DNA of 64,000 nt from Halothiobacillaceae bacterium (GCA_049974825.1 JBNGDJ010000001.1:30993-94992), one strand, 5' to 3'; numbered from the stretch's first letter, positions 5,423 through 26,873 are shown. The notes: generated by a model not told the origin, from the sequence alone. Numbers and translations: made by a program.

Positions 5423-6289
5423 TCACTGCTCCATGATCCAGTGTGCGGTCAGCAGGACGACCCGGTCCTCATCGAAGGTCCGGCCTTCCTGAGTTCCGTC
5501 TTCGGCCACGGTACCAATGCCTTCCTGCTGCGCGACAGTGTTGTTCGCCAACCACTGGTGGCCAGGTCGGTTGGCCGTTTCCGAATCCTCGTTGGTGTTC
5601 GCGGTCTGGATGCGGAAGCGCCCTTCCAGTGCATCCGGCTTGCCGTCAATCACCTGGTCCAGATACCGGGCCAGGTCCGGTGTCAGGCCACGAAGCACCA
5701 TGACATTGCCCGCACCACTTTCAGTGCCGGCCGGGTTCCACTGAAAGCAGACCTGCAATTCAACCGCATTGCCATTGGTATCCTGATAGACGTAGCGATC
5801 CTCGCGGCCTTCACCGCGCCCCGGCGGCATCCGGATGCCGATACGCTGCATCAGCGCGCGGAGGTTCTGATCGGCCAGCTCGCGGTCGCCCTCACCGACC
5901 TCGCCCTCGTTGTAGCCCTGGCCATTGCAGATCTTCAGACCGGTATTGGCGAAGTTTTCGGGAATGCCGGCCAGCGCGCCGTCCAGATTGCCCCCCTCAC
6001 CGGTGCTTGATCCGCCAATGGTCGCCTCCTCGCCATTGACCATGTAGGTTGGCGAGGTCTGCACATCACCGAGAACAACACCGGTGCGGTTGTAGTACTC
6101 GTCGTAGGCCTTTTTCCAGCCGCTGACGAACTTGTTGGAGATCTTCGCGTACTCGGCGTTTCGCTGAACATCCTTTCCGATCATGACCGCACCGACGATC
6201 AGGCCGATGATCACCAGCACGATCGCCATTTCGATCAGGGTGAAGCCGCCGACCCGTCGGCGCATCCCGACTTGCTCGATCACTCGCAT
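5423..6289 (-). CDS. Large type IV pilin-like protein, paralog B (288-aa precursor)
   Basis: MRVIEQVGMRRRVGG|FTLIEMAIVLVIIGLIVGAV is a prepilin motif. ATG 6289 was chosen because AGGAG lies 7 nt upstream. The ORF track begins at TTG 6295, and an alternative ATG is at 6265. The mature part is about 270 aa with 2 Cys. Confidence 0.8.
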   Translation of the reverse strand: MRVIEQVGMRRRVGGFTLIEMAIVLVIIGLIVGAVMIGKDVQRNAEYAKISNKFVSGWKKAYDEYYNRTGVVLGDVQTSPTYMVNGEEATIGGSSTGEGGNLDGALAGIPENFANTGLKICNGQGYNEGEVGEGDRELADQNLRALMQRIGIRMPPGRGEGREDRYVYQDTNGNAVELQVCFQWNPAGTESGAGNVMVLRGLTPDLARYLDQVIDGKPDALEGRFRIQTANTNEDSETANRPGHQWLANNTVAQQEGIGTVAEDGTQEGRTFDEDRVVLLTAHWIMEQ

Positions 6290-6304
6290 GCCCAAACTCC
6301 TGCC

Positions 6305-7099
6305 TTACTGGTTCATCTTGTAGTGCGCTACGACAACTTGGACCTGATTCTCGTCCAGCCCGGCGTCTTCCCCGATACCTTCTTGACCGTAGGCCTGAGT
6401 GTTGCTGGCCTGCCACTGCTGCCCGGGTTGATTCGCGGTCTCGCACGTCGCACCTTCGCGACGGAACATGCCCTCGCACTCATCCGGCTTGCCGTCGATC
6501 ATCTGATCCAGGGCGCGGGCCAAGTCGGGCGTCAGCCCAGTGAGCACCATGACATTGCCCGCGCCAGAAGCGGTGTCCGGCTCATTCCACTGGAAGCAGA
6601 CCTGAACCTCCTGCGGGTTGCCATTGCTGTCCAGGTACACATAGCGGTCCTCGGAACCCTCGGCGCGGCCCGGCGGCATGCGCACACCCGCCCGCAGCAT
6701 CAGCTGACGCAGGGCAAAATCGCCGTTCACCGTCGTATCCTCCGCGCCACGATCCATGTCCTGCCCTTGAGCCCCCTGGCAGATCGCGGAGGGCTCGTCG
6801 ACACCCGACATATCACGGCCGGAGAGGCTGTCGCCGTTGCCATCGAAATTGGCCCCGTTGACCATCAAGCGCGGCGCGGTCTGATCGTCGCCGAGCGGGA
6901 CGCCGGTTCGCTGGTAGTAGGTGTTGTAGGCCACCACCCACTGATCCACGAACTTCTGCTTGATTTTCGAATATTCCGCGTTGCGCTGGACATCCTTGCC
7001 GATCATTACGGCACCCAGGATCAACCCGATGATCACCAGCACCACGGCCATTTCCACCAGCGTGAAACCGCCGGCACCCCGAATGCGTCTTTGCATCAT
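6305..7099 (-). CDS. Large type IV pilin-like protein, paralog A (264-aa precursor)
   Basis: MMQRRIRGAGG|FTLVEMAVVLVIIGLILGAV is a prepilin motif. ATG 7099 was chosen because GAGGGAGGCAAGAGA lies upstream. The ORF-track ATG 7138 has no RBS. It shares long blocks with paralog B (GKDVQRNAEY, RMPPGR.EG.EDRYVY, QVCFQWN, SGAGNVMVL.GLTPDLAR, IDGKPD). Confidence 0.8.
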   Translation of the reverse strand: MMQRRIRGAGGFTLVEMAVVLVIIGLILGAVMIGKDVQRNAEYSKIKQKFVDQWVVAYNTYYQRTGVPLGDDQTAPRLMVNGANFDGNGDSLSGRDMSGVDEPSAICQGAQGQDMDRGAEDTTVNGDFALRQLMLRAGVRMPPGRAEGSEDRYVYLDSNGNPQEVQVCFQWNEPDTASGAGNVMVLTGLTPDLARALDQMIDGKPDECEGMFRREGATCETANQPGQQWQASNTQAYGQEGIGEDAGLDENQVQVVVAHYKMNQ

Positions 7100-7329
7100 G
7101 TCAGTCTCTTGCCTCCCTCGCAGGGCTGGATTTCGCATTAAACGAACCGAAGTTCATGGACCGGGGACTTGAACGCGCATCCTGCGCGATACTTGTGTTG
7201 CACACCCCTTGAAAAACGCCGCACAAAGCCACAGTTGGCGCTGCTCGGCCACCAAACCCAGTGGTTTGGGCCACGGTACGCCGGGGCATCCATCCCCAAC
7301 CGGGAACCTGAAAAATTCCAAAAGAGATT

Positions 7330-7427: not shown

Positions 7428-7444
7428 CGTTAACGCAGCGTTAA
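7428..7444. promoter_or_regulatory. Candidate operator: two CGTTAA hexamers phased 11 bp apart (site 1)
   Basis: CGTTAACGCAGCGTTAA. A near-identical site is at 7692-7709. It lies between the SARP-like regulator gene and the pilin operon. No binding function has been shown. Confidence 0.3.
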
Positions 7445-7691: not shown

Positions 7692-7709
7692 CGTTAACCG
7701 AGCGTTAAC
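7692..7709. promoter_or_regulatory. Candidate operator: two CGTTAA hexamers phased 11 bp apart (site 2)
   Basis: CGTTAACCGAGCGTTAAC. Hexamer starts are at 7692 and 7703. It is the partner of site 7428-7444. Confidence 0.3.
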
Positions 7710-7886: not shown

Positions 7887-10800
7887 TCAATCCCGGTGAA
7901 TCACCGCAGCGGGCCGCTCTTCCATAAACAGTTCAAGACCCGCATTTCCCTGGTCGCGCGCCATCGCCTCGGCCTCAGCAAGAGCCTCGCCGGCCCGGGC
8001 CTGATCGCCCCGGGCGCGATGGTACTCCGCGTCCATCGCGTGCAGCATGGGCCAGAAGGCGCGATCGCCACTGTAGCGACCGGCATCGAAGGCCTGGTCG
8101 ATGTGGTGCTTCATAACCTCACGCTTTCCAGTCAGGCGTGCAGCGTCGGCCACAATCCAGTGGAAGATGCCGGCCACTGCGGGCAAGGCCTGCATGCACA
8201 TGGCTACCGATCGCTGCAGTGGCTCAAGTGCCAACTGCCCGTGACTTGCCGCGTCGGACCAGCCTTCCAGCAACAGGGCGGATGCCTGCCACAGGAAAAG
8301 ATCGTTTTGCTCGGCCAGCTGGCGGACTTGGCGCGCTTGAGCGCGAACTCGATCAGGCTGGCGGGACATAAAGGCCAGAACGCCCGAGAAGGTCAGGGTG
8401 TAGCAGAGCATGTGCGGATGCCCCAGCCGCTGGGCCCGCTCGGCATTCAACCGGGCATGACGGTCCGCCTCTTCGGGCCGGCCGGTAAACCAGCAGACCC
8501 AGGAGAGAAAGGCGCGTGCCGTAATGCCGGAGTCCTCGCCGTAACGACTGATCAGCGTGGCCGGGGCATGATCGCGCACCAGTTGCAGACAACGGTTCAG
8601 GTAGGTTTCGGCCTGCGCAAACCGGCCGAACCAGACCAGGTTGTTGCCCATGGCCGAGCAGGCCAGCAGCAAATGCTCGTCACTGCCCGTGCGCTGGGCC
8701 TCCTCCAGAAGACGCTGGGCCGGAAGGGCGGGGTCCTGTTCGTCTTCGGGCGCCCGCCCGCCGCCCCAGATTCCCCACAGCACGGGGAAGACATCCGGCG
8801 CCGAATCGAGCCGCCCATGCAGACGAAGCGCATGGCTGAAGGCAGCGCGGGCCTCGGGGCTGCCGTATCCCCGATAGGCCAGGAGAATAAAGCCCCGGCA
8901 CGCCTCGATCTCGAAGGACAGCGCATCCCGACGCGCCTCGGGGCACAGCGGCAAGAGCCGGCGCGCCCTGTCCACCAGCGTCACAGCCTGCGCGTACTCG
9001 CCACGACCGCGGGCCCGGTTGGCCGCCATTACCCAGGTCCGGACCGCGCGCGGCCACTGATGAGCCTTCTCGGCATGGTGGGCGATTTCCCCAAGGCGCT
9101 CGCTGGCCGATTCCTGCCACGGGCCGTCGAAGGCGTCGAGTACCCGGGCATGCCAGAATACGCGTTCGTCCGGCTCCAGCGAAGCGTAGGCCGCCTCCCG
9201 GATCAGGGCATGCCGAAACTGCAGAACATCGGCGCCCTCCTCCTCATCCCGGACAAACAAGTCCGAGCCGGCCAGCACGAGCCAGTGGGATTCACAGTCC
9301 ACCGATTCTCCGGCCAGGCATTCGACCTCATCTCGGCAGAAGCGCCGACCGAGGACGCTGGCAACCCGTGCGAGCACGGCGGCATGGCCCAGCCCGTCAA
9401 GCCTTTCAAGAAGCAGGCCGTGAAGCGACGCGGGCGCTGCCCCGCCGTCCCCGAAACCTTGCCAGTGCGCCGCGATTTCTTCAAGATAAAGAGCATTGCC
9501 GTCACCAAGCTCCAACAGCCGGCTGTCGGCATCCTCCGGCGCCCCGCGACGCAGCAGGTGCTTGCGCAGAAGGGTCCGGGCCTGCGGCCGGGGCAGCGGC
9601 GCGAGACTCAGGATCAGGTCAACCGGCAGATGCTCCGGCGTCTTGCGACTGGTCACGAGCAGGCCAACCCGAGGAGGCAGGCTGTCGGCCAGACCGGCCA
9701 GCAGCTCCTGGCTGATCGCATCCAGCCAGTGGGCATCCTCAAGAATCAACAGCAGGGGCATGCGCCCGGCAAGCCCCCGGAACATCCGCCCCAGCAACCG
9801 CTGAAGCCGCTGGGGTGACAGCGGCACATCACGCGCCAGCTGGTCTTCTTCGGCGGAAAGATCCAGCAGGCGCTCGAAATCGCCGGCCAACTCGGACAGG
9901 CCCAGTCGCTGCATCCGCTCGGCAAGTCGCGCCCGGGCCTCGCCCCGGCTGTGCGTCGCGCGAATCCCCGCGTAACGGGCGATGGCATCAATCAGGGCGC
10001 CATAGGCGTGGTTGGCCCGCTCCGGTCGGCAGATGACCTGTCGGACCGCAACGCCCTCCGGCAAGACGCGCTGCACCAGCTCCATGCCCAGGCGGGTCTT
10101 GCCGATGCCGGCTTCGCCCTCGACCCAAGCCAGGCCCGCACCACCGTCCCGGATCGGCGTCCACCACTGTTCGAGCTCCCGCAACTCCCTGTCCCGCCCC
10201 ACCAGAGGCACCAGTGGCTGGCCCAGCCCGGTCGCCGGTTCCCAGAACGCAATCGGCGCATGCAGTTCGTAGACCTGTTCAGTTATCCGACTGTATCGAA
10301 GACCTCGAGCCAGGCGTACCGGCAGGGCCGTGACCAACGTGTCGTCGACAAGCAAACGATTGGAGCCTGCCTGCCGCGCCAGATCCAGCGCCCTGCGCAA
10401 GAGTTGCCCGCGCACGTCGGCGCGACGGCCCTGATCGCTGACCGACCAGCCCATGCTGACGCCCAGCCCGGTGGCGTCCGGCATCTCCGCCAGGATCGAC
10501 TGGCAGGCAGACAGTGCACGGCGGGTCTGCGTTTCCGAGGCCATGGGATAGCCGAAATAGCCCACGACCTCCCCTGTCGGCGCCCAGTCAGCCGTGGCCC
10601 CGAAACCGCGAAAAAGTGCGGTCAGCTTGTGCCGAAGCATGTCCAGCTCGGCCGGGCGGGCCGCCCCTTCCACGGGGTCGAGCGTGGCGGCGACCACCGT
10701 CAGCCAGCGCTTGACGTATTGCGGCCCACCCTGGGCTACCGGCTCAACCGGACTGGCCGGCACGATCGAATCGTCGGTCTGTGACAGGCGCTGCACCAAA

Positions 10801-11525
10801 GCAACGATATCCGGGGCCGGCTCGAGATCCAGCTCGGCCTTCAGGGCCTGCTCATGCTGGCGAAACAGCGTGCGTCCCAGGCTGGTCTGCCCGGTCTGTA
10901 GTGCCAGGTTGAGGGCAACTTGACAGGCTTCGTGATCATCAGGCGCCAGCGAGAGCCACCGCTGCACCGCCTCCAGCGCCTTGCTGTCGCGTCCCTGTGC
11001 GACCGCCGTCCTGGTGACCTGCCCGGCTGCCGCCGAAGCGGCCTGGCGCAAACGCATCCGCTCGCCGTCTAGCCAGAGCATGAAGTCGAGTGCGTCCTCG
11101 AGCATGAAATCCGGCAACAGCTCGCCGCCGTAGGCATCCAACACCTGTTGCCAGTGCTCGGGGCCGGCGTGTTCGTCCACTTGCCGACTGGCCTGTTCGA
11201 ATTCCCAGACATCGACCCGGCCCATGCCGGCCGGCTGAAGACGAATGCTGCTTCGGTCGCTGACCAGAACCCGTCCATCCGCGTCACGCAACAGTTTGCG
11301 CAGTTCGAACAGGCTGCGCCTGAGATTGACGCGCGGGTCACTGCAGGACTCCGGCCAGAGCAACTCGGCCAGGTATTCGCGGCGCAGGGCGCGCCCGGGA
11401 TGGAACAAAAGAAAGACCAGCAGGGCGAGACACTTGTCGTAAGGCGGGTCGACACGCTGGCCATCAACCTCAAGACGCCAGCGCTTCATCAGCGAGATTT
11501 CGATCCGGGAGACGCTTTCTGTCAT
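7887..11525 (-). CDS. Multidomain regulator: SARP-type winged helix + BTAD + degenerate cyclase-homology domain + P-loop STAND ATPase + TPR (1212 aa)
   Basis: aa 1-100 are OmpR/SARP-like (RLEVDGQRV, LALLVFLLFHPGRALRREYLAELLWPE, NLRRSLFELRKLL). aa 105-250 form a BTAD-like helical region. aa 272-425 are class III cyclase-like but lack both metal Asp (VVAATL, VVGYFGYP). Walker A is GEAGIGKT (nt 10098-10121) and a Walker B-like motif is LLLILEDAHWLD. About 550 aa of TPR-like helical repeats follow. Confidence 0.7.
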   Translation of the reverse strand: MTESVSRIEISLMKRWRLEVDGQRVDPPYDKCLALLVFLLFHPGRALRREYLAELLWPESCSDPRVNLRRSLFELRKLLRDADGRVLVSDRSSIRLQPAGMGRVDVWEFEQASRQVDEHAGPEHWQQVLDAYGGELLPDFMLEDALDFMLWLDGERMRLRQAASAAAGQVTRTAVAQGRDSKALEAVQRWLSLAPDDHEACQVALNLALQTGQTSLGRTLFRQHEQALKAELDLEPAPDIVALVQRLSQTDDSIVPASPVEPVAQGGPQYVKRWLTVVAATLDPVEGAARPAELDMLRHKLTALFRGFGATADWAPTGEVVGYFGYPMASETQTRRALSACQSILAEMPDATGLGVSMGWSVSDQGRRADVRGQLLRRALDLARQAGSNRLLVDDTLVTALPVRLARGLRYSRITEQVYELHAPIAFWEPATGLGQPLVPLVGRDRELRELEQWWTPIRDGGAGLAWVEGEAGIGKTRLGMELVQRVLPEGVAVRQVICRPERANHAYGALIDAIARYAGIRATHSRGEARARLAERMQRLGLSELAGDFERLLDLSAEEDQLARDVPLSPQRLQRLLGRMFRGLAGRMPLLLILEDAHWLDAISQELLAGLADSLPPRVGLLVTSRKTPEHLPVDLILSLAPLPRPQARTLLRKHLLRRGAPEDADSRLLELGDGNALYLEEIAAHWQGFGDGGAAPASLHGLLLERLDGLGHAAVLARVASVLGRRFCRDEVECLAGESVDCESHWLVLAGSDLFVRDEEEGADVLQFRHALIREAAYASLEPDERVFWHARVLDAFDGPWQESASERLGEIAHHAEKAHQWPRAVRTWVMAANRARGRGEYAQAVTLVDRARRLLPLCPEARRDALSFEIEACRGFILLAYRGYGSPEARAAFSHALRLHGRLDSAPDVFPVLWGIWGGGRAPEDEQDPALPAQRLLEEAQRTGSDEHLLLACSAMGNNLVWFGRFAQAETYLNRCLQLVRDHAPATLISRYGEDSGITARAFLSWVCWFTGRPEEADRHARLNAERAQRLGHPHMLCYTLTFSGVLAFMSRQPDRVRAQARQVRQLAEQNDLFLWQASALLLEGWSDAASHGQLALEPLQRSVAMCMQALPAVAGIFHWIVADAARLTGKREVMKHHIDQAFDAGRYSGDRAFWPMLHAMDAEYHRARGDQARAGEALAEAEAMARDQGNAGLELFMEERPAAVIHRD

Positions 11526-11574: not shown

Positions 11575-12993
<1,419 letters not shown>

Positions 12994-13177
12994 GGGCAAT
13001 CCGGCGTGATAAGGGGCATGGCGACAACGATGGCAGGCACGGCCCAAGCCAGCGATTCTGGCCGGAGCCATGGACGCGCGGGCCGAGCGCCGACCAGAAT
13101 CGCGAAAGCCCGGACGCAACCATTCGATCATATCAGACTGCCCGCCGGAAGGCCGACAACAGGAAGTAACGTGCGAA

Positions 13178-16100
13178 TCAGGCGCCGGGCAGGTCCGCGC
13201 CATCCGGCGCCTGCCAGTGCACGCGGTTTCTACCCGAGCTCTTGGCTCGGTAAAGCGCCTCGTCCGCGCGGGCCAGCGCCGCCTCGACATTGGATTCTTC
13301 GGGGAGGACGCTCGTGCCGCCCACGCTGACCGTGATGGCCATATCCCGGTGAAGATCGGACCAAAGCGCCGAGGCCACGGCCGCCCGGAACCGCTCGGCA
13401 ATCTGCCGGGCACCTCGGCTGTCGGTATCCGGCAGCAGCACCGCGAATTCCTCGCCGCCCAGCCGCCCGGGCAGGTCACTGCGGCGGAAGGTGCTCCGGC
13501 ACAAGGCGGCAAAGCGGCGCAGCACCTCGTCCCCTGTGGCATGACCGAAACGGTCGTTGACTTCCTTGAAGTGATCCAGGTCCAGCATGAGCACCGCAAG
13601 CGGGCTCGACTGCCGGCGCATCCGGTGGATTTCCGTTTCGGCCCGGGCCATGAATTCGCGCCGGTTGGCCAACCCGGTCAGCTCGTCGGTACTGGCCAGA
13701 TCGCGAAGCCGCGCCTCGGCCTGCTTGAGCTCGGTAATATCCGAAAAGACGCAGACCGCGCCCTCGATTCGCTCCACCCCGATGGGCGTCACGGACAGGC
13801 GCACCGGAAAGCGTGTACCGTCGGCCCTCAGGAATTCGTCCTGGACAGCCTGACGCGGCCGCCCGTCAACCAGCACCCGGGGCCAGCCCTCGTCCGGCAT
13901 GGCCGGCGCTTCCCCACGGAACAGCCCTAGCACATGCCGACCGACCACCGCATCCGCGCCCAGCCGCAGCATGGTCAGTGCCGCCGGGTTCGCGAAACGC
14001 ACCCGGCCTTCATCGTCCATCCCGACAATACCCTCGCCGGCCGTTTCCAGGATCAGGGCGTTCTCCCGGCTGACTTCAAGCACGGCGCGCTCGGCGCGCT
14101 TGCGCTCGGTAATGTCCTGCACAGTACCCACGACACCCGTGGGCGCACCCTCTGCATCGCGGCGCACCTCGGCCTCGACAATCACCTCCTTGACCCGGCC
14201 AAGTGGCGACAGCAGCCGGAACTCGAACCGGTATTCCCGGGTGCCCGCCAGAGCCTCCTGGATGATTCGCTCGACGCGCGGACGATCCTCGGGATGGACA
14301 TGTTCAAGGAACAGTTCGCCGCTGGGCACAACGGATCGCGGCGGCAAATCGAAGATCCGGAAGGTCTCGTCAGTCCAACGCACTGCGCCGGATGGCACGT
14401 CCCATTCCCAGCTGCCAACATGGGCCAGGCGCTGGGCATGCTCCAGCCTGCGGCCATTCTCGCGAAGCTGATCCAGCAGGCGGCGCTCGTCGGTCATGTC
14501 GATCGACAGCCCCACCAGCAAATCGACCGCTCCGACTTCATTGCGCACCGGCGTCAGCAGCGTGCTCCAGACGCGCCGGCCACCGGGCAGCACCAGCTCC
14601 TCGACATAGCGCAGTACCTCGCCGCTCTCCCAGCACTGGCTGTACTGCCCGCAGACGTAGGCCGCCGTCTCCGGGTCAAGCAGCTCCTGCGGGCGACTGT
14701 CCCGCAAACGCTCGGAGGGCATGCCGGTTGCGCGGGCATGTTCGGGGTTGCTGCCGCGATAGCGAAAGGCGCCCTGCTCATCCCGTCCGACCAGGAAGAT
14801 CGCCTCCTGGACGTGTTCGAAAATGCTTCGGTACAGCCGCTCGTTGCGTTCCAGCTCCTGTTCGATGCGCACCCGGTCGCTGACATCCCGGGAAGCGGTC
14901 TGGATCCCCTCCGGCTCGCCGCCTGAGCCCAGCACCGGCGCGGCACGGGTTTCCAGCCAGCACCAGCTGCCATCCCGCCGGCGGATCCGATAGGTGATTT
15001 CGCTGGCCTGCCCGGCCAGTACCTGTGCCTGGCTCTCGTCGCGAATCCGGTCAGCGTCATCCGGGTGGAACAGCGTGTAGGGGTCCTGCCCGATCAAATC
15101 CCCAGGCGCGTAGCCCAGAAGCGCAGTCACCGAGGGGGACACATAGGTGTAACGTCCGCTCAGATCGTGCAGGCAGATCAGGTCAGTCATGTTTTCCGCC
15201 ATCAGGCGGAACAGCCGTTCACGCTCGGCCAGGGCCTCCTGGGCAGCCACCTGCTTGCTGACATCGTGCTGGAAGACCACCACCCGCTCGAGATTTCCGT
15301 CCTCGTCGAGCACCGGCGCGACCGATTCCAGCGACCAGTAGAGACTGCCGTCCTCACGTCGTGAGAGCAGTTCACCCCGCCAGATTCGCCCCTCGGCCAG
15401 GTGGTGCTTGAGCTCGGGAATTGCCGCCTGGTCACTGTGCGGCCCGACAAACAGCTCGTCCGGGTGCCGCCCCAGCACATCGGCTTCGCTGTAACCGGTC
15501 TGGCGCTGAAACTGAGGGTTGACCGCGATAATCTGCAGATTTCCGTCGAGCACCATCACGGAATCCGGGGCCGAATCAAACAGCGAACTGCTGAAACGCT
15601 CGGAACTGTCCAGCGCCTCCCGACTGGCCGCCACCTCGCTTTCGAGGCCGCGCACCGCCCGGCGCAGCAGCAGGCCCATCACGAACAGGGCCAGCAGGAA
15701 GCTGACCGCCGCCAGCGCCGCCCCGCCGGCCATGCGATCGAGGTGAGTGCGCATCATGTTCGTGCGATCCGAGAACAGCAGGATGCTGCCCACCGGCCCC
15801 ACTTCGGCCCCCTCGGGCGCGAAGGTCGCAAGCGGGACGCGCACCACTGACAGCCAGCGCCCGTCGATGTCCAGCAGGCGGAAGTCACCCGGCGCGATCT
15901 CGCCCGGGTTGTCCAGCGTACGCAGCCAGTCGCGCGTGGTTTCGTCTGTCACGGCCTCAATGTAGCAGCGACAGTTTTCCATGGACTCCAGGCCATGACG
16001 CCGGATATGGCTTTCCCAGGTCACGCCCTCGACATGTTCGGCGCGCAGCAGGACGGCCATGCGCGCATCGAAGCGGCGCGACAGCTGAAGCAGCAGTTCG

Positions 16101-16747
16101 GAAAAGCTCAGGCCGGTCTCCAGCGTGCCGACATGAACCGGCCCGTCGGGGCCCTGCGCCTGAACTGGCACCAGGCCGCGAATCCCGGAGTAAACCCGCC
16201 CGATCTCGAAGCCGGTCACCGCCCGGCGACCGCGGTTGGCCTCGACCACCATCGCTCGGATATCCCCCAGCGGATCGCCGAAACGGTCGGGTTCGTGAAC
16301 GCGCAGAAAGCTGCGATAGTCATCCGGAAGGTGAAAATGCAGCTGGCGCGCGTCGTAGCTGTCCTGAAGCGCCAGCCAGCGCGGCGCCACGTAGTCGTAG
16401 AGCGCCTCGCGCAGCCGGGCGGCACGAGGACCGCCGGCCCCACCCCCCTCGGCCTGAACCGCCGCACGCCCGGCCTGCATGAGAGAGCGCACTTCGGGAT
16501 CGGAGGCAATAAAGGTCGCGAAATGGAGCATCTCGCGCTCCATGATTGCCAGCGAGGCATCGACGCCTGCCGTCAGCGCGGCAGACTCGTTGGCCAGCTG
16601 GTCACGGATCGTCGCCCGCTCGATCAGCAAAAAGCCGCCCAGCGAGAGGATCCAGCCCAAGGCCATGACGAACGCGACGAGCAGGAAACGGCGGGGAAAG
16701 GAAGCGGTCGGTGAGCGATCGCCGCCCGAAACGGTCGACAAACTCAA
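13178..16747 (-). CDS. Membrane Cache-type sensor + 5 PAS + GGDEF diguanylate cyclase (1189 aa)
   Basis: N-terminal TM, then a Cache_3-like periplasmic region (HFHLPDDYRSFLRVHEPDRFGDPLGDIR, GFEIGRVYSGIRGLVPV) and a second TM. Five PAS-like segments follow (for example FDSAPDSVMVLDGNLQIIAVNPQF, MAENMTDLICLHDLSGRYTYVSPS), then GGDEF (RRSD-LPGRL-GGEEF). The TTG start at 16747 has GGAGGAT upstream and overlaps the chpC stop (TTGA). The alternative ATG at M28 would truncate the TM. Confidence 0.8.
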   Translation of the reverse strand: MSLSTVSGGDRSPTASFPRRFLLVAFVMALGWILSLGGFLLIERATIRDQLANESAALTAGVDASLAIMEREMLHFATFIASDPEVRSLMQAGRAAVQAEGGGAGGPRAARLREALYDYVAPRWLALQDSYDARQLHFHLPDDYRSFLRVHEPDRFGDPLGDIRAMVVEANRGRRAVTGFEIGRVYSGIRGLVPVQAQGPDGPVHVGTLETGLSFSELLLQLSRRFDARMAVLLRAEHVEGVTWESHIRRHGLESMENCRCYIEAVTDETTRDWLRTLDNPGEIAPGDFRLLDIDGRWLSVVRVPLATFAPEGAEVGPVGSILLFSDRTNMMRTHLDRMAGGAALAAVSFLLALFVMGLLLRRAVRGLESEVAASREALDSSERFSSSLFDSAPDSVMVLDGNLQIIAVNPQFQRQTGYSEADVLGRHPDELFVGPHSDQAAIPELKHHLAEGRIWRGELLSRREDGSLYWSLESVAPVLDEDGNLERVVVFQHDVSKQVAAQEALAERERLFRLMAENMTDLICLHDLSGRYTYVSPSVTALLGYAPGDLIGQDPYTLFHPDDADRIRDESQAQVLAGQASEITYRIRRRDGSWCWLETRAAPVLGSGGEPEGIQTASRDVSDRVRIEQELERNERLYRSIFEHVQEAIFLVGRDEQGAFRYRGSNPEHARATGMPSERLRDSRPQELLDPETAAYVCGQYSQCWESGEVLRYVEELVLPGGRRVWSTLLTPVRNEVGAVDLLVGLSIDMTDERRLLDQLRENGRRLEHAQRLAHVGSWEWDVPSGAVRWTDETFRIFDLPPRSVVPSGELFLEHVHPEDRPRVERIIQEALAGTREYRFEFRLLSPLGRVKEVIVEAEVRRDAEGAPTGVVGTVQDITERKRAERAVLEVSRENALILETAGEGIVGMDDEGRVRFANPAALTMLRLGADAVVGRHVLGLFRGEAPAMPDEGWPRVLVDGRPRQAVQDEFLRADGTRFPVRLSVTPIGVERIEGAVCVFSDITELKQAEARLRDLASTDELTGLANRREFMARAETEIHRMRRQSSPLAVLMLDLDHFKEVNDRFGHATGDEVLRRFAALCRSTFRRSDLPGRLGGEEFAVLLPDTDSRGARQIAERFRAAVASALWSDLHRDMAITVSVGGTSVLPEESNVEAALARADEALYRAKSSGRNRVHWQAPDGADLPGA

Positions 16748-17256
16748 CGGGGCCGATCCTCCGAACCGACAGGCAGCATCTGGCGCACCCGGGCCTCAAG
16801 CGCATCGAGATCGGGCACCACGACCGGATCGGTGGCCAGCTTTCCGGAAAAGGCAAGCAGGGGCTCCTCGACCTTCTGCTCATCTTCCAGCATCCGGTGC
16901 GGCAGGCGCATGGAGCGGGGAACGCCCTTCAGGGCCAGGGCATAGTAGGCCAGCCGCTCATCGGGATTGAGTGCGTAGACCACCGCCACCGGCAGGCGCC
17001 GGCGCCATTCGACCGGCGGATCTGCCATCAGACGATCCAGACCAATCACCGGCAGGAGCACGCCACGCCAGGTAAAATGCCCCAGGATCGGCTGGTCACC
17101 GCTGACCAGCGTGGCAAGCTGCGCCTCGGCCACTTCCGCAATGGTCTCGTAGGGCAGCAGCAGGTCGCCGCGCGTCAGACCGACGCGCAGTTGCAAGGCC
17201 CGCAGTGGAGTGTCGTCCCCGTGAGCATCGTTTGGCAGCGGATCGGTGCTTGTCAT
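16744..17256 (-). CDS. CheW-like coupling protein (ChpC-like, 170 aa)
   Basis: CheW-domain style sequence (LLLPYETIAEVAE ... GHFTWRGVLLPVIGLDRL). ATG 17256 overlaps the chpA stop (ATGA). Its position after chpA matches Pil-Chp clusters. Confidence 0.65.
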   Translation of the reverse strand: MTSTDPLPNDAHGDDTPLRALQLRVGLTRGDLLLPYETIAEVAEAQLATLVSGDQPILGHFTWRGVLLPVIGLDRLMADPPVEWRRRLPVAVVYALNPDERLAYYALALKGVPRSMRLPHRMLEDEQKVEEPLLAFSGKLATDPVVVPDLDALEARVRQMLPVGSEDRPR

Positions 17257-20200
17257 GGGCTTTCATCCTCCGCACAAAGCCCCGGCAACCACTGCGCCAT
17301 GGCCGCCAGCAGCTCCGTTTCGGTGTAGGGCTTGCCGAGATAGCCGCTGACGCCGAGAGACTCGGCCCGCTCGCGGTGCTTCGCGGCAGTCCGGGACGTG
17401 ATGAAGATGACCGGCAAGTCCCGGATCTGCGCATCGTTGCGGATGGCCCCGAGCAGCTCGAAGCCGTCCATGCGGGGCATCTCGATATCGCTGAGCACCA
17501 GATCCGGCCGTCGGGCGCGCAGCATGCCCAGCGCCTCCACGCCGTCCCGCGCCACGGCGGTTTCGATATTGCGGCGCTCCAGGATGCGCGCCGTGACCTT
17601 GCGGATGGTGACCGAGTCGTCAACGACAAGTACCAGGGGCCGATCCTCGCGCCCGCGCGGTCCGGCCTCTGCCTGTCCACCGGCCCGGCGGTGCCTGTAC
17701 AGGCCCACCAGGTCCAGCACGGGGGTGACCTCGCCATCTTCGTCGATGGTGGCCCCCATCAGCCCCGGCACCTGGTCCAGTCTCGGCCCGAGCGCCTTGA
17801 CGAACAACTGGATCACCCCATACTGGCGATCGACTTGCACCGCCAGGCGCCGCTCGCCCAGGCGCATCAACAGAACCGGGCGCATGTCCACGCCCAGCGC
17901 ACGGGGCGGGCCGTCACCCCAGAGCAGGTCACCCAGGTAATAAAGCGGGTAGGACTGGCCATCCTGAGACAGGGCCGGCTGCTCGCTGGCGTAGGCGTCC
18001 GCAAGCGCCCGACCGGAGACCCGAACCACCGAGAGAATCCCCTTGTCCGGAATCGCGTAGCGTTGCTCACCCACTCCGAGCAGCACGCCGCGGGTCAGGG
18101 CCTGTGTCAATGGCAGGGTAACCTCAATCCGCGTCCCCGCTCCCGGCGAGCTGTCGACCTCAATATACCCGCCGAGCTGGCGGACTGCCGTGGCAACCAC
18201 ATCCATCCCCACGCCCCGGCCCGCCACCTGCGAGACGGTCTCCGCGGTGGAGAAGCCCGGGTCAAAGATCAGGGTGCGCGCCTCTTCGTCGGAGATTTCC
18301 CGATCGCCCTCGATCAGCCCACGCGCCCGCGCCTTGCGGCGGATGGCCTCCAGGTCCAGTCCGCGACCGTCGTCGGAGACCGTCATCAGGATATTGCCCC
18401 CCTGGCTTTCCAGGTGGATGCGCAGCTGACCCTCAGCCGGCTTGCCGGCCTGCTGGCGAGCCGCGGGCGGTTCGATGCCGTGCGCAATGGCATTGCGGAT
18501 CATGTGTTCCAGCGGTGCCTGCAGGGCCATCAACGTGACCCGGTCGAGCCGGACATCTCCACCCTCGACACTCAGCATCGCCCGGCGGCCAAGTTCCGCG
18601 GCCACCTGCCGGACCAGGCGTTGCAGACGGCCGGCCAGATCACCGAAGCGAACCAGGCGCAATGCAATCAACTGATCCTGCTGGGTTCGCCCCAACCGCC
18701 CCTGCTGAACCAGCAGAGTACGCGCCTGATCGGCCTGCTCCCGCAGTACGTCCTCGATCTCGTCGATGTCGCCCAGCGCCTCCATGAGGCTTCGGCTCAA
18801 CTCCTGCACGCGTGTGAAGCGGTCGAATTCCAGCGGATCGAAATGCGCCCCCGCTTCGACCCCCTCACGATGCAGCTGGTGGCGCATGCTGGACTCGGTC
18901 TCGATTTCCAGGCGACGCAACTGACCTCGCAGTCGAGAGACTGTCTGGTTCAGTTCGCCAAGCTGTCGCTCGAAGCCGTGCATCTGGCGGTCGATGCGCG
19001 CCTGGAGCAGCAGGGACTCGCCGGCCTCGGCCACCAGTTCGTCGATGCGTTCGGAAGGCACCCGGAGCTGTTCCCGCGGTGCCGCCCGCTCGACGGCAGG
19101 CGTCGCCTCGGGCTGATCGACCAGTTGGGCCGGAGCGGGCTCCGCCGCTTTCTCGTCCGTTTCAGCTGTCCCGAAGGACATGGCCTCCTCGGGCGCTGTC
19201 TCCGCCGGTGCCGCACCCTCCAGGCCGGCAGGCTGCGCGGTCTCTTGCGGAGTCGGCGCGGCTGCTGGCGCTGCATCGGTCACTTCTGGCGTGGCTGCTG
19301 CGCCCGTCAGCGCCTCGGAGTCCGGCAGCTCGTCGCGCGACAGCAGGGCAAGAAGCTCGTGCTGGGCCGGTACCGGCTGCATGTTGCGCACCCGGTCGAT
19401 CAGCGTGCCGAGCGTGTCATAGGTCCGCTGAACCAGGGCCACCAGGGCACGCGGGTTGTCGACCCCGCGGTCTCGCGCCCGGTCCAGTCGATCTTCCAGC
19501 AGGTGCGTGATTTCAGCGATATTCATCAGCCCGGCCATGCGGGCCCCGCCCTTGAGCGTGTGCAGGTTGCGGTGTAGCAGCCGGATCGGGTCCGCGGCAT
19601 CCGGCTGGGCATGCCAGGCCTGCAGCTGCTCGTCAGCGGCCTCCACCAGCTCGTCGGCCTCCTCGAGAAAAATCTCCAGGATTTCGGGGTCCTGCTCGGC
19701 CGGCAGGTCGTCCGGGCGCTCGGACTCGTCGGCAGGTTCAGCAGCGGGCTGGGCGCCGGGAGACAGTTCGGGCTTCACCGTCTCGCTGGACGCGGAGGGC
19801 ACCACCGCCGGTTCCGCCGGTTCAACTTTCAGCGGTTCAACGCCGGGGGCTTCGGTCTGCGCTGCCTTCGGAGCCTGCATCCCGGGCACGCCGGCCCCGG
19901 CAAAGGAAGCGCGCAGCGCCAGAAGACGCTCGATCAGATCATGCGTGGGGACCGGCTCGGGCAGCTCGCCGATCGCCCAGCGTCGAAGCTGCTCAATGCG
20001 GTCCACCGCCTCGGAGAACACCGTGAGGGGTTCCTGGTGAAGGCGCGATCCGGCTTCCCGGCAGGCGAGCATGACGTCTTCGACCGCGCGCGCCAGCTGC
20101 GAGATTTCGGAAACGCCGGCGGTGCGGGCCGAGCCGAGCAGGGTGTGCGTCAGTCGCGCCAGCGCCTCGTCCGGCACCAGGCTGACCCCCACCGAGCGGG

Positions 20201-23039: not shown

Positions 23040-23126
23040 TGACGCTTCCCCCTTGCAGTCGTTCTGGCAGGGTGTCGCCCCGTGACCTCTCGCCACCGGT
23101 CGACTCACCCCGGCTTGGCGTGACGA

Positions 23127-25124
23127 TCAATCCGCACGCTCCGGCATGCGGAAGCCGGCCACGGAAGTATTCAGCTCGCTGGACAGGGCACCGAGCTGGC
23201 CAATTTCCTCAGCGGCTCGGTTGGCCTCGTCCGCCGTCTCGCGGGTCTGCTCACGGATTGTGACCACCCGCTCGCGAAGCTGGTTGGCCACGCCGGCCTC
23301 CGACTGGGCAACCTGGGAAATCTCGTTGATTCGCTCCGAAAGGCTGAGGGAGACGGTCTCGATCTCCTCCAGTGCCTTGCCGGCGTTCTCCGCCAGCCCG
23401 GCGCCGCTGACCACGTTGGAAGTCGTGCGCTCCATGGCGAGCATGGCCTCGGATGTGTCGGTCTGAATGGTATTGACCAGCAGTTCGATCTGGCGGGTCG
23501 CGCTGCCCACGCGTTCTGCCAGACGCTGTACTTCGTCCGCGACCACCGCGAAGCCCCGCCCGGCCTCGCCGGCCATGGCCGCCTGGATTGCGGCATTCAG
23601 CGCCAGGATGTTCGTCTGGTCCGCAATGTCGGTGATCAGGCCAACAATGTCGCCGATCTCCTGGGAGCTCTCACCCAGACGCTTGATTCGCTTGGAGGTC
23701 TCCTGAATCTGCTCCCGGATCGAGCTCATGCCGCGGATGGTTTCCCGCACCGCGTCCCCGCCCCGGTGCGCCACATCGACCGAGGACTTGGCCACGTCGG
23801 CCGATTCCTGGGCGTTGCGCGACACGTTCTCGATTTCGTCTGCCATCCGGGCAATCGCCTCGCTGACCTCGTCGATCCGCTGGGCCTGGGCGCGAGACTT
23901 CTCGGCCAGCTGTCGCGAACTCGACTGCGAATCCGACACCGCCCCAGCCACGCGAACCGAGGTGTCGTTGATCGTTCCGACCAGGTCACGCAACGCGTCG
24001 ATCGTGTAGTTGACCGAGTCGGCGATGGCGCCGGTAATGTCCTCGGTCACCGTGGTGTGGGCACTGAGGTCACCGTCGGCCAGGGTCATCATCTCGTCGA
24101 GCAGACGCAGAATGGCCTGCTGGTTGCGCTGGTTCTGGGCCTCGGTTGCGGCAAGCTGCGCGCGCGCGGCACGGGTGAGCACCCAGCCAAGCAGAACCAG
24201 CAGGATGGCCGCCAGACCCCCGATGCCGAAACCGACGTAAAGCAGGCGGGCTGCGGCCGCCTGGTCGTCGGACATGAGGTCGGAGAATGCAAGGGCCTGC
24301 TCGGTAAAGGCTTCACCCTCGTCCAGGGCGCGATCAACCGCCTGGTCGACCGCCGCCAGATCCTCGGCCCGGGAAGCCACGGCCTCCACCTCGGCCAGGA
24401 CGAAGGCGAACTGCTCGCGCAGGGCGGCCACCTGCCCCCGGTCGGCAAGCCCGGCTGCCGGCAGATCGTCCAGGATGCGCGAGAAGATCCCGAGGTCCAC
24501 GCCCAGGCGCGCCAGCGTCTCGGATCGGCTGCGATCGGCATCAAGCAGCGCAGCCAGTCCGGATTCGAGCCGCTGGGCCAGCATCAGCTGCCGGGTCGCG
24601 TCGTAGACCCGCGCCGGGGCGGCATCCGCGCGGACCAGCTGCATGGCCACCGCGTCAGCCCCGGCGACCAGATCGGGCAGCGCCGCAGACACCTCGGCGG
24701 CCTTCTCGGTCACCGTGATGACGGCATCCCGCCCGGCCAGCAGCGCGTCCAGGTTTTCCGCATAGGCCGCCCAGTGGGTAGCCAGCGCGTCGAGATCCGC
24801 CGAACGGCTGCCCGGCAGCGGCGCCACGCCGGTTTCCGGGTCCCCGTCACGCAGCCGCTCCAGGTCGCGCGCCACCAGGCGGCGGAAGTCGGCCACGCGC
24901 CCGAATGCGCCCGCGTCACCCTCCGCCGCACGGGGCAGCTCGACGACCAGGTCCTGCGCAGCGCGCTCTATCTGAGCCGCGATCAGGCGTCGTTCAAGGT
25001 AATGGCGATCCTGCTGGGCAGAGACCAGGAAGATTCCGGCCGTAGCGAGGAACGCCAGCGCGATGGCTGCCACAAGAGCGATGACCTGGTTGCTGACCCC
25101 GCCAAACTTCTTCATCAAACGCAT
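23127..25124 (-). CDS. pilJ: PilJ-type methyl-accepting chemotaxis protein (665 aa)
   Basis: N-terminal TM and a long helical periplasmic region, then a second TM and a HAMP-like region. The MCP signalling domain carries the conserved hairpin [40 protein letters not shown]. It sits between pilI and chpA. Confidence 0.85.
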
Positions 25125-25203
25125 ACGCTTACAACTTCCGGTTCATGGCCCGGCCGGCTGCCGGACCGCTGGAAAAGTCATCGGGTGCCGACGCGGCAAA
25201 AAT

Positions 25204-25740
25204 TCAGGCGCCGCGCGCGGCCACCACGGCATTGAAGGCCGGGCTGTCCACGAGGGCGGTCAGGGAAATCACCTGCACCGGCTCGGCCTCGAAGGTAACG
25301 GCATGATCGACGTGCGGCAGGTCCGCCGGCGACTGCGCACGGTCATCCGCCGGGAAGCGGCGGATGCCGATCGAGCGGTCGACCAGCAGGGCGGCGGCAT
25401 CCTCGGCCCGCCGAACGACCAGCATGACACTGCGCCGATCCACGGACGTCGGCCGACCGAACAACACAAGCCCCAGGTCATGCACCCCGACAAGCTCGCC
25501 ACGCAGATTGCACAGTCCAAGCAGAGAGGGAACGACCCCGGGCAGCGGGACGATCCGGGGTACCGGCACGATGGCGGAAACCTCGTCCAGCGGGGAGACC
25601 AGCAACTGCTCTCCCACCCGGTACACGACCCCTTGCCAAGTTTCCACCACCCCCTGCTCGCGCGGCAGGCCGGCCGAGGAGGCGACGGCGCGCCCGGCCA
25701 GGCTGCGCAGGCAATCGAAGGCGGTCGCTGCCTCAGCCAC
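25204..25740 (-). CDS. pilI: PilI-type CheW-like protein (178 aa)
   Basis: CheW-like sequence (VPRIVPLPGVVPSLLGLCNLRGELVGVHDL). The GTG start overlaps the pilH stop by 8 nt. Gene order matches pilG-H-I-J. Confidence 0.7.
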   Translation of the reverse strand: MAEAATAFDCLRSLAGRAVASSAGLPREQGVVETWQGVVYRVGEQLLVSPLDEVSAIVPVPRIVPLPGVVPSLLGLCNLRGELVGVHDLGLVLFGRPTSVDRRSVMLVVRRAEDAAALLVDRSIGIRRFPADDRAQSPADLPHVDHAVTFEAEPVQVISLTALVDSPAFNAVVAARGA

Positions 25741-26098: not shown

Positions 26099-26148
26099 GC
26101 CTTGCTCCCTTGAAGTCTCGAAGAAGTCTCGAAATGGTTGCGCGGCGG

Positions 26149-26583: not shown

Positions 26584-26873
26584 GTCGTCACCCTGATCCT
26601 GGGCGGTCGGAACGAATCGTCCGCCGGATTGCCCATTGCGATTGCTCATTGCCTTTGCGCCGGACGCGCATCCTGCTGCAATACTCGGACAGATGGCGCT
26701 CCCGCGCAAGTTGCGCACCCTTGCGACAGCAGTGATCACAGCCTGAGCGCACAGGCTGCTAGAATGAAGCCCCTGCCAATGATGGCCCAAGGTTCAACCG
26801 GGGGCGTCGCCGGCAGCGGCCGGGCGACGGGCCCGAGCACCACTTGCCCATTACACACAATTCGAGTAAGCGA

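What the first reader, a model, noticed from the sequence alone, without database searches (positions are those of the whole stretch)
7887..11525. 1212-aa regulator combining a SARP DNA-binding module, an apparently inactive cyclase-homology domain, a P-loop STAND ATPase and TPRs
Seen: an N-terminal OmpR/SARP-like winged helix and BTAD-like region. Residues 272-425 look like a class III nucleotidyl cyclase fold, but the positions normally holding the two metal-binding Asp read VVAATL and VVGYFGYP. Walker A GEAGIGKT and LLLILEDAHW follow, then a long TPR-like tail. Established: SARP-NB-ARC-TPR (AfsR-like) regulators and cyclase-AAA-TPR-LuxR proteins each exist, mostly in actinobacteria. Inference: fusing SARP and BTAD to a degenerate cyclase domain and a STAND core looks unusual. 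Its location in a proteobacterium between c-di-GMP enzymes and pilin genes adds to that. The dead cyclase domain could be a nucleotide-sensing module.
Basis: partly seen in the sequence, partly recalled or inferred. Interest (0 to 1): 0.6.

Follow-up and report, generated by a model that had tools for sequence, protein, structure and literature searches.

The report
SARP regulator carrying a dead cyclase domain
This is a large transcription-activator gene of a widespread but unstudied family that carries a catalytically dead cyclase domain, and it probably switches on the neighbouring pilus operon through two unique repeat sites.

Summary
The 1212-aa ORF lies on the minus strand (11525→7887). 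It has a SARP module (wHTH+BTAD), a class III cyclase-homology domain (CHD, ~268-425), an AAA_16 STAND ATPase with intact Walker A/B, and TPRs. The CHD is real (hhalign 97.8%; AF2 model matches only cyclases) and non-catalytic. The metal Asp positions are T281 and G318, and β4 Arg, Asn and Arg are G353, R377 and D381.

The architecture is not rare. 99 of the 149 best 50%-identity representatives share colinear SARP+CHD+P-loop, and none keeps both metal Asp. About 1% of sampled Pseudomonadota genomes encode one. I found no paper describing a member.

The gene ends a Pil-Chp plus two-diguanylate-cyclase operon and precedes an MSHA-type pilus operon. TTAACG-N5-TTAACG occurs only twice in the 2.63-Mb genome, both in the 748-bp spacer. 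It is conserved in the sister species. AACGCT-type 11-bp repeats also sit beside distant homologues in four other lineages, each 8-10 bp before a -10-like hexamer.

Best reading: an ATP-switched SARP activator of the pilus operon, with the CHD as a non-catalytic module. This is a new variant of large SARP / SARP-LAL regulators. The scan had separately noted the repeat sites in this same window.

The parts
7887..11525 (-). Regulator CDS, 1212 aa (P0001). ATG at 11525, with an in-frame TGA four codons upstream. 49 bp separate it from the stop of the upstream diguanylate cyclase gene.
11226..11504 (-). OmpR-type winged-helix DNA-binding domain (about residues 8-100). The recognition helix reads RVNLRRSLFELRKLL.
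   Evidence: Pfam Trans_reg_C E 1e-3, below cut-off. Foldseek matches AfsR SARP and EmbR at E 7e-11 to 1e-9. The family profile hits AfsR at 5e-60. The NLRR helix is conserved in the clade.
10773..11216 (-). BTAD helical domain (residues 104-251)
   Evidence: Pfam PF03704 32.3 bits against a cut-off of 22.1. The AF2 model is all-helical over 105-251.
10251..10724 (-). Non-catalytic class III cyclase-homology domain (residues 268-425). It follows a disordered linker at 254-267. Key positions: T281, W314, G318, G353, D370, R377, D381.
9654..10208 (-). AAA_16 STAND/NOD ATPase (residues 440-624). Walker A GEAGIGKT is at 10095-10118 and Walker B LLLILEDAHW at 9726-9755.
   Evidence: Pfam PF13191 E 8e-20. 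G473, G475, K476, E596, D597, H599 and W600 are invariant in A1.
7926..9128 (-). TPR-like helical sensor region (about residues 800-1200)
   Evidence: Weak Pfam TPR hits at 829-1025. TIGR03903 aligns colinearly over 287-1199.
7692..7708 (-). Site A: TTAACGCTCGGTTAACG, an 11-bp-period direct repeat 179 bp after the regulator's stop. A -10-like CAGAAT (7677-7682) lies 9 bp after it.
   Evidence: one of only two genome-wide matches. It lies in a roughly 100-nt conserved island (7615-7716) in the spacer alignment with G001.
7428..7444 (-). Site B: TTAACGCTGCGTTAACG, 264 bp downstream of site A. A GACTAT hexamer (7412-7417) lies 10 bp after it.
   Evidence: G001 has TTAACGCTCAGTTCACG in the same spacer.
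5423..7138 (-). Two paralogous prepilin-like genes that head the MSHA-type pilus operon, the presumed target. The operon runs on past the window start to mshL, mshM-like, mshE and mshG genes.
   Evidence: N_methyl and GFxxxE motifs. MshL TIGR02519 scores above cut-off; T2SSE+MshEN and T2SSF are present. Synteny is conserved in G001.
11575..26790 (-). Upstream co-directional genes: pilG-like, pilH-like, pilI, pilJ, chpA (1951 aa), cheW, a dCache-PAS-GGDEF gene and a globin/DosC-GGDEF gene. The regulator is the last gene of this series.
   Evidence: same order in G001

Best explanation
The gene encodes a SARP-type transcription activator joined to a STAND switch (AAA_16 ATPase plus TPR sensor). 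A non-catalytic cyclase-homology domain sits between the two.

Proposed mechanism, by analogy with AfsR:
1. The NOD/TPR part holds the SARP module inactive until ATP, and an unknown signal sensed by the TPR region or the CHD, releases it.
2. Two SARP modules then bind side by side to an 11-bp-spaced direct repeat (core TnAACGCT) that takes the place of a -35 element, 8-10 bp upstream of a -10 hexamer.
3. They recruit RNA polymerase there.

In this genome the only two such sites lie in the spacer between the regulator and the MSHA-type pilus operon. The most likely job is therefore to activate that operon. The regulator itself appears to be co-transcribed with the Pil-Chp chemosensory genes and two diguanylate cyclases.

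The CHD cannot make cyclic nucleotides. It most likely serves as a dimerising or coupling module between the oligomerising NOD and the two DNA-binding heads.

Shown here: domain identities, loss of the catalytic residues, the uniqueness, conservation and geometry of the repeats, and gene order. Inferred: DNA binding, activation, the target operon, ATP control and the CHD's role.
For: Domains:
- Pfam and NCBIfam hits.
- AF2 plus Foldseek place residues 1-250 with AfsR/EmbR and 268-425 with cyclases.
- The family profile hits AfsR at 5e-60 and EmbR at 2e-51.

Dead CHD:
-.
- None of 99 representatives keeps both metal Asp.

Operator:
- TTAACG-N5-TTAACG occurs exactly twice in 2.63 Mb, both in the spacer and both on the coding strand (0.02 expected in the window).
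- Site A sits in a conserved island in the otherwise diverged G001 spacer.
- A pattern-blind scan for exact 6-mers at 11-bp period in the flanks of 10 homologues gave 8 hits, and 7 of them carry the AACG core.
- ATTCAACGCTG occurs twice in tandem, 74 bp after the stop of a 32%-identical homologue.
- GTGAACG-N4-GTGAACG and GGAACGCT-N3-GGAACGCT lie 76-83 bp upstream of the G139 and G131 homologues, facing divergent genes.
- Three GAACG-N7-GAACGCT-type sites lie around the G141 homologue.
- Genome-wide, each of those genomes has only 3-13 relaxed matches, of which 1-2 lie beside the regulator.
- -10-like hexamers (CAGAAT, GAAAAT, GAGCAT, TAGGAT, TACAAT) follow at 8-10 bp.
- G032 has the pilin pair but neither the regulator nor the repeats.

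Published rules:
- SARP repeats are 11 or 22 bp apart, and the 3' repeat lies 8 bp from -10. NOD/TPR inhibition is relieved by ATP (PMC10936776).
- The SARP-LAL regulator PimR binds heptamer repeats in the intergenic region next to its own gene (PMC3367932).

Context.
Against:
- The association with the pilus operon holds only within one genus. More distant homologues sit beside unrelated genes.
- No AACG repeats were found beside the G456, G030 or P0005 homologues.
- The consensus promoter scan calls no sigma-70 promoter in the spacer. That fits an activator-dependent promoter but is not positive evidence.
- Long hairpins, one of them terminator-like (7330-7369), lie between site B and the pilin genes.
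- GTTAAC is palindromic, so a different dimeric protein could bind it.
- The AACGNT core was generalised after the first cases had been seen.
Confidence: 0.6

Rival explanations
1. The dead cyclase domain is a ligand sensor: a degenerate purine-nucleotide pocket at a CHD dimer interface that gates the regulator. Candidate ligands are ATP, cAMP, cGMP or another nucleotide. This matches the best explanation for DNA binding and differs only in the CHD's role.
For: - The Asp at the adenine-specifying position (D370) is kept in 10 of 10 proteobacterial members and 79 of 99 representatives, although the catalytic residues are gone.
- The partner position is Gln in 28 of 99 representatives, as in the PF00211-positive CHD-AAA_16 relatives.
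- The β4 Arg is kept in 65 of 99.
- From my own knowledge: the degenerate second site of mammalian cyclase heterodimers binds a regulator, forskolin.
- The genome has no other class III or class I cyclase.
Against: - Both metal Asp and the triphosphate-contacting residues are lost, and they vary between members (Asp1 is E/R/H/G/T, Asn is R/A/K/G). A conserved pocket would not vary like this.
- In this protein the β4 Arg is Gly and the Lys site is Trp.
- No binding data exist.
Confidence: 0.25
2. The TTAACG repeats belong to another regulator or are structural, and this protein controls other genes, such as its own operon or distant loci.
For: - GTTAAC is a palindrome.
- The relaxed motif has four further matches in the genome.
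- Distant homologues have different neighbours.
Against: - The strict motif is unique to the spacer.
- Similar repeats sit beside homologues in four other lineages.
- The repeats are absent where the regulator is absent.
- The other relaxed matches overlap a ribosome-binding site, lie inside an ORF, or abut a hairpin.
Confidence: 0.12
3. The cyclase domain is still an enzyme, with unusual chemistry, that makes a cyclic nucleotide when the STAND core oligomerises, as in mycobacterial Rv0386-type proteins.
For: - The fold is intact.
- E319 lies next to the Asp2 position.
- Some SARP-CHD relatives (P0052: D,K,D,R,-,N,R) look catalytic.
Against: In this protein five of the six canonical residues are replaced: T281, W314, G318, R377 and D381. 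The β4 Arg is also Gly (G353). None of the 99 closest representatives keeps both metal Asp.
Confidence: 0.03
4. It is an Avs-like anti-phage STAND NTPase rather than a transcription factor.
For: P-loop STAND plus TPR is the layout of many defence sensors. There is a weak PADLOC mad8 match at E 0.0025.
Against: - The only PADLOC match is confined to the P-loop region.
- The N-terminus is a DNA-binding SARP module, not a nuclease or other effector.
- It sits inside a conserved chemosensory/pilus gene order.
Confidence: 0.02

Closest known systems
AfsR (Streptomyces coelicolor), a large SARP: SARP + NOD + TPR
   Same: - Same order of SARP module, P-loop STAND ATPase and TPR sensor.
- The SARP fold matches (Foldseek 8k60/8hvr; family profile E 5e-60).
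- The candidate operator has AfsR-like geometry: two 11-bp direct repeats just upstream of a -10 element (PMC10936776).
   Different: - A roughly 160-aa cyclase-homology domain lies between BTAD and the ATPase.
- The ATPase matches AAA_16 rather than NB-ARC.
- The host is a gammaproteobacterium.
- The likely target is a pilus operon, not antibiotic genes.
- No AfsK-type kinase partner was looked for.
SARP-LAL regulators (PimR, SanG, PolR, FilR/PteR)
   Same: [quoted passage not shown] PimR binds heptamer direct repeats with 4-bp spacers in the intergenic region next to its own gene (PMC3367932, PMC10972967).
   Different: - Those proteins are described as lacking the cyclase signature, whereas this one keeps the whole, dead cyclase fold.
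- In my set the CHD-less class has 44-92 aa (mostly 45-65) between SARP and Walker A, against 200-240 aa here.
- I could not test whether PimR itself hides a cryptic CHD, because I had no sequence for it.
STAND adenylyl cyclases of mycobacteria (Rv0386, Rv1358, Rv2488c: cyclase-ATPase-TPR-LuxR)
   Same: The CHD-AAA_16-TPR module is homologous and colinear. Relatives of that layout such as P0010 hit at E 8e-45. hhalign of the CHDs gives 97.8%.
   Different: - Catalytic residues are intact in relatives of that layout found here (D,Q,D,R,-,N,R in P0010 and similar) but lost in this protein.
- The DNA-binding domain is an N-terminal SARP instead of a C-terminal LuxR HTH.
TOMM system kinase/cyclase fusion protein (TIGR03903)
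   Same: The best NCBIfam match, E 3e-69 over residues 287-1199, covers the cyclase, ATPase and TPR parts.
   Different: The score of 234 bits is far below the 706-bit cut-off. There is no kinase domain, and I saw no TOMM genes among the neighbours annotated.
MalT (E. coli), the STAND transcription activator
   Same: The same logic: an ATP- and inducer-dependent STAND switch drives cooperative binding to repeated promoter sites (my own knowledge; the AfsR paper PMC10936776 cites MalT as a STAND example).
   Different: The DNA-binding domain is a C-terminal LuxR type in MalT and an N-terminal SARP here. MalT has no cyclase-like domain.

Membership tests
SARP family regulators | N-terminal OmpR-type winged-helix DNA-binding domain | tested here: met
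   Pfam is weak (E 1e-3, below cut-off). The AF2 model 1-440 matches AfsR SARP and EmbR as its top six hits. The family profile hits AfsR at 5e-60.
SARP family regulators | BTAD helical domain directly after the winged helix | tested here: met
   PF03704 at 104-247, 32.3 bits against a cut-off of 22.1
SARP family regulators | Target promoters carry direct repeats 11 (or 22) bp apart, with the 3' repeat about 8 bp from the -10 element | tested here: met
   Two unique sites of this form lie next to the gene, and like sites lie beside homologues. This was tested in silico only, and -10 hexamers were assigned by eye.
SARP family regulators | Binds those repeats and activates transcription | not testable with these tools
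   Needs EMSA or footprinting and reporter assays
SARP-LAL subclass (PimR type) | SARP plus LAL-type AAA ATPase and TPR, with no LuxR HTH | tested here: met
   AAA_16 and TPR hits are present, and no PF00196 or other HTH hit lies at the C-terminus.
SARP-LAL subclass (PimR type) | Lacks the cyclase part of the cyclase/LAL relatives (as published) | tested here: not met
   A complete cyclase-homology fold is present at 268-425.
Class III nucleotidyl cyclases (PF00211) | Cyclase-homology fold | tested here: met
   hhalign 97.8%. All top 50 Foldseek hits are cyclases, TM 0.52-0.66. Pfam itself gives no hit.
Class III nucleotidyl cyclases (PF00211) | Two metal-binding Asp plus transition-state Asn and Arg | tested here: not met
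   T281, G318, R377, D381
STAND NTPases (AAA_16 / MalT-like) | Walker A GxxxxGK[ST], a Walker B acidic pair, and a C-terminal repeat sensor | tested here: met
   GEAGIGKT 470-477, LLLILEDAHW 591-600, TPRs
STAND NTPases (AAA_16 / MalT-like) | Nucleotide-dependent oligomerisation | not testable with these tools
   Needs SEC-MALS or cryo-EM with and without ATP
TOMM kinase/cyclase fusion (TIGR03903) | Full-length match above the curated cut-off, including an N-terminal Ser/Thr kinase | tested here: not met
   233.9 bits against 705.75. The match starts at profile position 307.
Known anti-phage STAND systems (PADLOC) | Match to a defence-system protein model | tested here: not met
   Only mad8 at E 0.0025 over the P-loop region

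The most novel reading that the evidence does not exclude
A large, uncharacterised family of SARP-pseudocyclase-STAND regulators shares one operator type: AACGCT repeats at 11-bp spacing. At least 99 clusters at 50% identity belong to it, and the members that could be placed taxonomically here are Pseudomonadota. In this organism the family member would replace the Pil-Chp → CyaB → cAMP → Vfr route known from Pseudomonas. The dead cyclase domain would keep the surface or pocket through which the chemosensory system or a nucleotide acts, and would pass that signal directly to the promoter of an MSHA-type pilus operon. The genome has a complete Pil-Chp cluster but no detectable class I or class III cyclase.
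Probability: 0.15. Interest if true: 0.75.

Novelty: new variant of a known kind. Interest (0 to 1): 0.5.

Why it matters
- SARPs are treated in the literature as actinomycete antibiotic regulators. One paper states they are 'exclusively found in actinomycetes' (PMC7040171).
- Here a full SARP-STAND protein sits in a sulfur-oxidiser-family gammaproteobacterium, next to a pilus operon, with a predicted operator. SARP-module matches occur in 30 of 401 sampled Pseudomonadota genomes.
- The family gives a clean natural case of a cyclase turned pseudoenzyme inside a signalling ATPase. Catalytic-looking, half-degenerate and fully dead versions are all available for comparison.
- It also suggests how the published SARP-LAL class arose: a SARP fused to a cyclase-ATPase-TPR protein, followed by decay or loss of the cyclase.
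- The operator prediction is directly testable and would give the first regulon for this family.
- It is not a new kind of system, and no function is demonstrated.

Tried and rejected
- Pfam on the excised cyclase-like region gave no hit for this protein or P0003. P0005 reached E 2e-4.
- phmmer of the whole protein against PDB found only CadC and designed TPRs.
- PADLOC gave nothing meaningful.
- Rfam on the spacer returned only sub-threshold hairpin look-alikes.
- The sigma-70 consensus scan found no promoter in the spacer.
- A sigma-54-like GGCAC...TGT element after site A does not keep its spacing in G001, so I dropped it.
- The four other genome matches to the relaxed TNAACG-N5-TNAACG pattern do not look like operators. 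One overlaps a ribosome-binding site, one lies in an ORF, one abuts a hairpin, and one was not inspected.
- Genes downstream of the P0004 homologue and around the G141 homologue show no pilus theme. They are secreted proteins, a HAMP-SpoIIE phosphatase and an OmpR-type response regulator.
- No AACG repeats were found for the G456, G030 or P0005 homologues.
- Literature searches for a described SARP-cyclase fusion found none.
- The A4 alignment shifted the Asp2 column by one residue. I corrected this by anchoring on invariant F324, G359 and G373.


Full report
**1. The observation**

ORF listing shows one uninterrupted 1212-aa frame at 7887-11525. It lies on the minus strand, which the finding did not say. 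The ATG at 11525 is the first start after an in-frame TGA. It lies 49 bp after the stop of the upstream gene.

Pfam gives:
- BTAD at 104-247, above its cut-off
- a weak Trans_reg_C match at 33-83
- AAA_16 at 440-624 (E 8e-20)
- several weak TPR matches at 829-1025
- no PF00211 match, even at E ≤ 1

NCBIfam's best match is the TOMM kinase/cyclase fusion model. It aligns residues 287-1199 to profile positions 307-1258 at E 3e-69, far below that model's cut-off. That was the first sign that the cyclase-ATPase-TPR part is one homologous module.

**2. Is residues 272-425 a cyclase fold?**

Yes. Four lines of evidence agree.
- In a full-length alignment with relatives that carry PF00211, the region aligns without large gaps. 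F324, G325, P327, E331, G359, G373 and A379 are invariant.
- A profile built only from the five closest relatives (P0001-P0005; none has PF00211 in the precomputed Pfam column) was searched against all PDB sequences. It returned nine hits at E ≤ 10, all of them class III nucleotide cyclases (best E 3e-3).
- hhalign of that profile against four PF00211-positive domains gives 97.8% probability and E 7e-13. A cyclase-domain HMM built without P0001-P0005 finds them at the right place, with E values of 1e-3, 2e-4, 2e-5, 7e-17 and 1e-18.
- The AF2 model of residues 255-440 (pLDDT 87.4, pTM 0.81) has class III cyclase catalytic domains as all of its top 50 Foldseek hits in PDB (E 4e-10 to 3e-7, TM 0.52-0.66).

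One caveat applies. The alignments used for folding contain real cyclase domains, so the models are not independent of the sequence evidence.

**3. Catalytic residues**

I anchored on invariant F324, G359 and G373, after noticing that one alignment had slipped by a residue. The canonical positions then read as follows.

| Canonical position | Residue in this protein |
|---|---|
| Metal Asp1 | T281 |
| Substrate Lys/Gln | W314 |
| Metal Asp2 | G318 (E319 is the following residue) |
| β4 Arg | G353 |
| Substrate Asp | D370 |
| Transition-state Asn | R377 |
| Transition-state Arg | D381 |

The domain cannot be a conventional cyclase.

**4. How common is the architecture?**

- Among the 120 best 90%-identity clusters, two discrete classes appear. 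One has 44-92 aa (mostly 45-65) between the SARP module and Walker A and no cyclase domain. The other has 200-240 aa there with a cyclase-homology domain, and holds about 29 clusters.
- JGI names some of these proteins 'SARP family transcriptional activator/class 3 adenylate cyclase/TPR'. Named members come from Rokubacteria and Solirubrobacteraceae.
- I searched residues 1-480 against 1.84 billion representatives. 99 of the 149 best hits are colinear SARP + CHD + Walker A proteins with a median length of 1235 aa.
- In those 99, none keeps both metal Asp and 84 keep neither. The Asp2 position is Gly in 68. The D370 position is Asp in 79.
- That list is biased towards relatives of this protein. 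A second group (P0044 and others) keeps D, Q, D, R and the last Arg but has Thr for Asn. P0052 keeps D, K, D, R, N, R and looks catalytic.
- In a sample of 400 Pseudomonadota species genomes, four encode the full architecture, and G030 in the window's own family does too. All have dead CHDs with the conserved Asp.
- Within the window's family the ortholog was found only in the same genus (G001, 74% identity). It was not found in the 34 other genomes searched.

The fusion is therefore not unusual in sequence space. I found no paper describing it.

**5. Context**

All genes from about 26790 down to the window start are on the minus strand.
- Upstream lie pilG- and pilH-like receivers, pilI, pilJ, a 1951-aa chpA, a second cheW, a dCache-PAS-GGDEF protein and a globin/DosC-GGDEF protein. 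The regulator follows.
- Next comes a 748-bp spacer.
- Then comes an MSHA-type pilus operon. It contains two paralogous prepilin-like genes, assembly proteins, an MshL secretin (above the TIGR02519 cut-off), an MshM/ExeA-like ATPase, MshE with its MshEN domain, and MshG.
- The whole order is kept in G001.

**6. A candidate operator**

Reading the spacer shows two copies of TTAACG-N5-TTAACG, at 7692-7708 and 7428-7444. Both are on the coding strand.
- The pattern occurs exactly twice in the 2.63-Mb genome. About 0.02 matches are expected by chance in the window.
- In G001 both are present, one exact and one with a single mismatch. Site A lies in a roughly 100-nt island of near identity in an otherwise poorly alignable spacer.
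- A pattern-blind scan for exact 6-mers repeated at 11 bp in the flanks of ten homologues gave eight hits, and seven of them carry an AACG core.
  - ATTCAACGCTG occurs twice in tandem, 74 bp after the stop of the 32%-identical P0004.
  - GTGAACGATTC-GTGAACGCTAA lies 83 bp upstream of the G139 homologue.
  - GGAACGCTCAA-GGAACGCTGCT lies 76 bp upstream of the G131 homologue.
  - The G139 and G131 repeats both face divergently transcribed genes.
- Searching AACG-N7-AACG then found three GAACG-N7-GAACGCT-type sites within 14 kb around the G141 homologue.
- Genome-wide, those genomes hold only 3-13 matches to AACGNT-N5-AACGNT, and 1-2 of them lie beside the regulator.
- Each site is followed after 8-10 bp by a hexamer of the form nAnnAT or better: CAGAAT, GAAAAT, GAGCAT, TAGGAT, TACAAT.
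- This is the published SARP geometry: repeats 11 or 22 bp apart, with the 3' repeat 8 bp from -10 (PMC10936776).
- The recognition helix (NLRR-x-L) is shared by the members carrying these sites and differs in the Actinomycetota-like group.
- G032 carries the pilin pair but has neither the regulator nor such repeats upstream.

The genome-wide, cross-species and cross-lineage tests are new here.

Three weaknesses remain. Three homologues show no such repeats. The -10 hexamers were assigned by eye. The generalised core was defined after the first cases had been seen.

**7. Mechanism**

By analogy with AfsR, two SARP modules bind side by side to the repeats and contact σ region 4 and the polymerase core. 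The NOD and TPR parts inhibit, and ATP relieves the inhibition (PMC10936776). I therefore propose an ATP- and signal-gated class-II-type activator of the pilus operon.

The AF2 model of residues 1-440 shows two confident domains joined by a disordered linker at 254-267 (pTM 0.58). The model thus suggests no fixed packing of the CHD on the SARP module.

The CHD's role is the least certain part.
- Class III domains are obligate dimers (established knowledge). A dimerising coupler between an oligomerising NOD and two DNA-binding heads is the simplest reading.
- The conserved D370 keeps a ligand-sensing role open.

The genome has no detectable class III or class I cyclase but has four cNMP-binding-domain proteins. 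This allows, but does not show, a link to the Pil-Chp → CyaB logic known from Pseudomonas (my own knowledge).

**8. Comparison and verdict**

- The protein meets the testable SARP criteria and the STAND motifs.
- It matches the SARP-LAL layout, except that it retains the cyclase fold which that class is said to lack (PMC3367932, PMC10972967).
- It fails the catalytic criteria for cyclases, the TIGR03903 cut-off and PADLOC.
- I rate it a new variant of a known kind: real, widespread and uncharacterised, with a concrete and testable operator prediction.

Noticed in passing
window 7330-7369, 7484-7529, 7547-7600 (minus strand): Three long perfect hairpins lie in the spacer between sites A and B and the pilin genes. 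Two share the loop CAGGGAAGG. The one at 7369-7330 is followed by a T-rich run and scores as terminator-like, which suggests attenuation in the pilin leader. G001 has similar hairpins.
   Followed up: partly
whole genome G000: No match to class III (PF00211) or class I (PF01295) cyclase models in a 99.6%-complete genome that has a full Pil-Chp cluster. Four cNMP-binding-domain proteins are present. The only cyclase-fold domain detected is the dead one in this regulator.
   Followed up: partly
Sample of 400 Pseudomonadota species genomes plus G000: 30 of 401 genomes have a match to the SARP module at E ≤ 1e-8, mostly in 500-800-aa or 1100-1400-aa frames. This is at odds with statements that SARPs occur only in actinomycetes.
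   Followed up: partly
P0052 (1302 aa, JGI metagenome): A SARP-CHD-AAA_16-TPR protein whose cyclase domain keeps both metal Asp, the Lys, the β4 Arg, and the Asn and Arg. It may be both an enzyme and a transcription factor.
   Followed up: no
L031 (G141:C29) 1322, 8910, 9843: Three GAACG-N7-GAACGCT-type direct-repeat sites lie around the G141 homologue, next to an OmpR-type response regulator and a sensor kinase. This may be a small local regulon.
   Followed up: partly
window 11575-13599 and 13178-16747: The 674-aa ORF call for the globin-GGDEF gene overlaps the upstream GGDEF gene by about 420 bp. The G001 ortholog is 473 aa, so the true start is probably near 12993.
   Followed up: partly
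window about 7080-7138: The first pilin ORF's ATG at 7138 is probably not the real start. Alignment with G001 places a GGGAGG ribosome-binding site and the start about 50 bp further downstream.
   Followed up: no
L040 (G032:C89): A third family genome carries the large pilin pair behind a 563-aa membrane protein. It has no SARP regulator and no AACG repeats upstream.
   Followed up: yes
L012 3960-4364: The contig of the 43%-identical homologue P0003 ends in a transposase-like ORF right after the regulator. A TTAAC-N5-TTAAA pair with a 10-bp period lies 110 bp after the stop.
   Followed up: no
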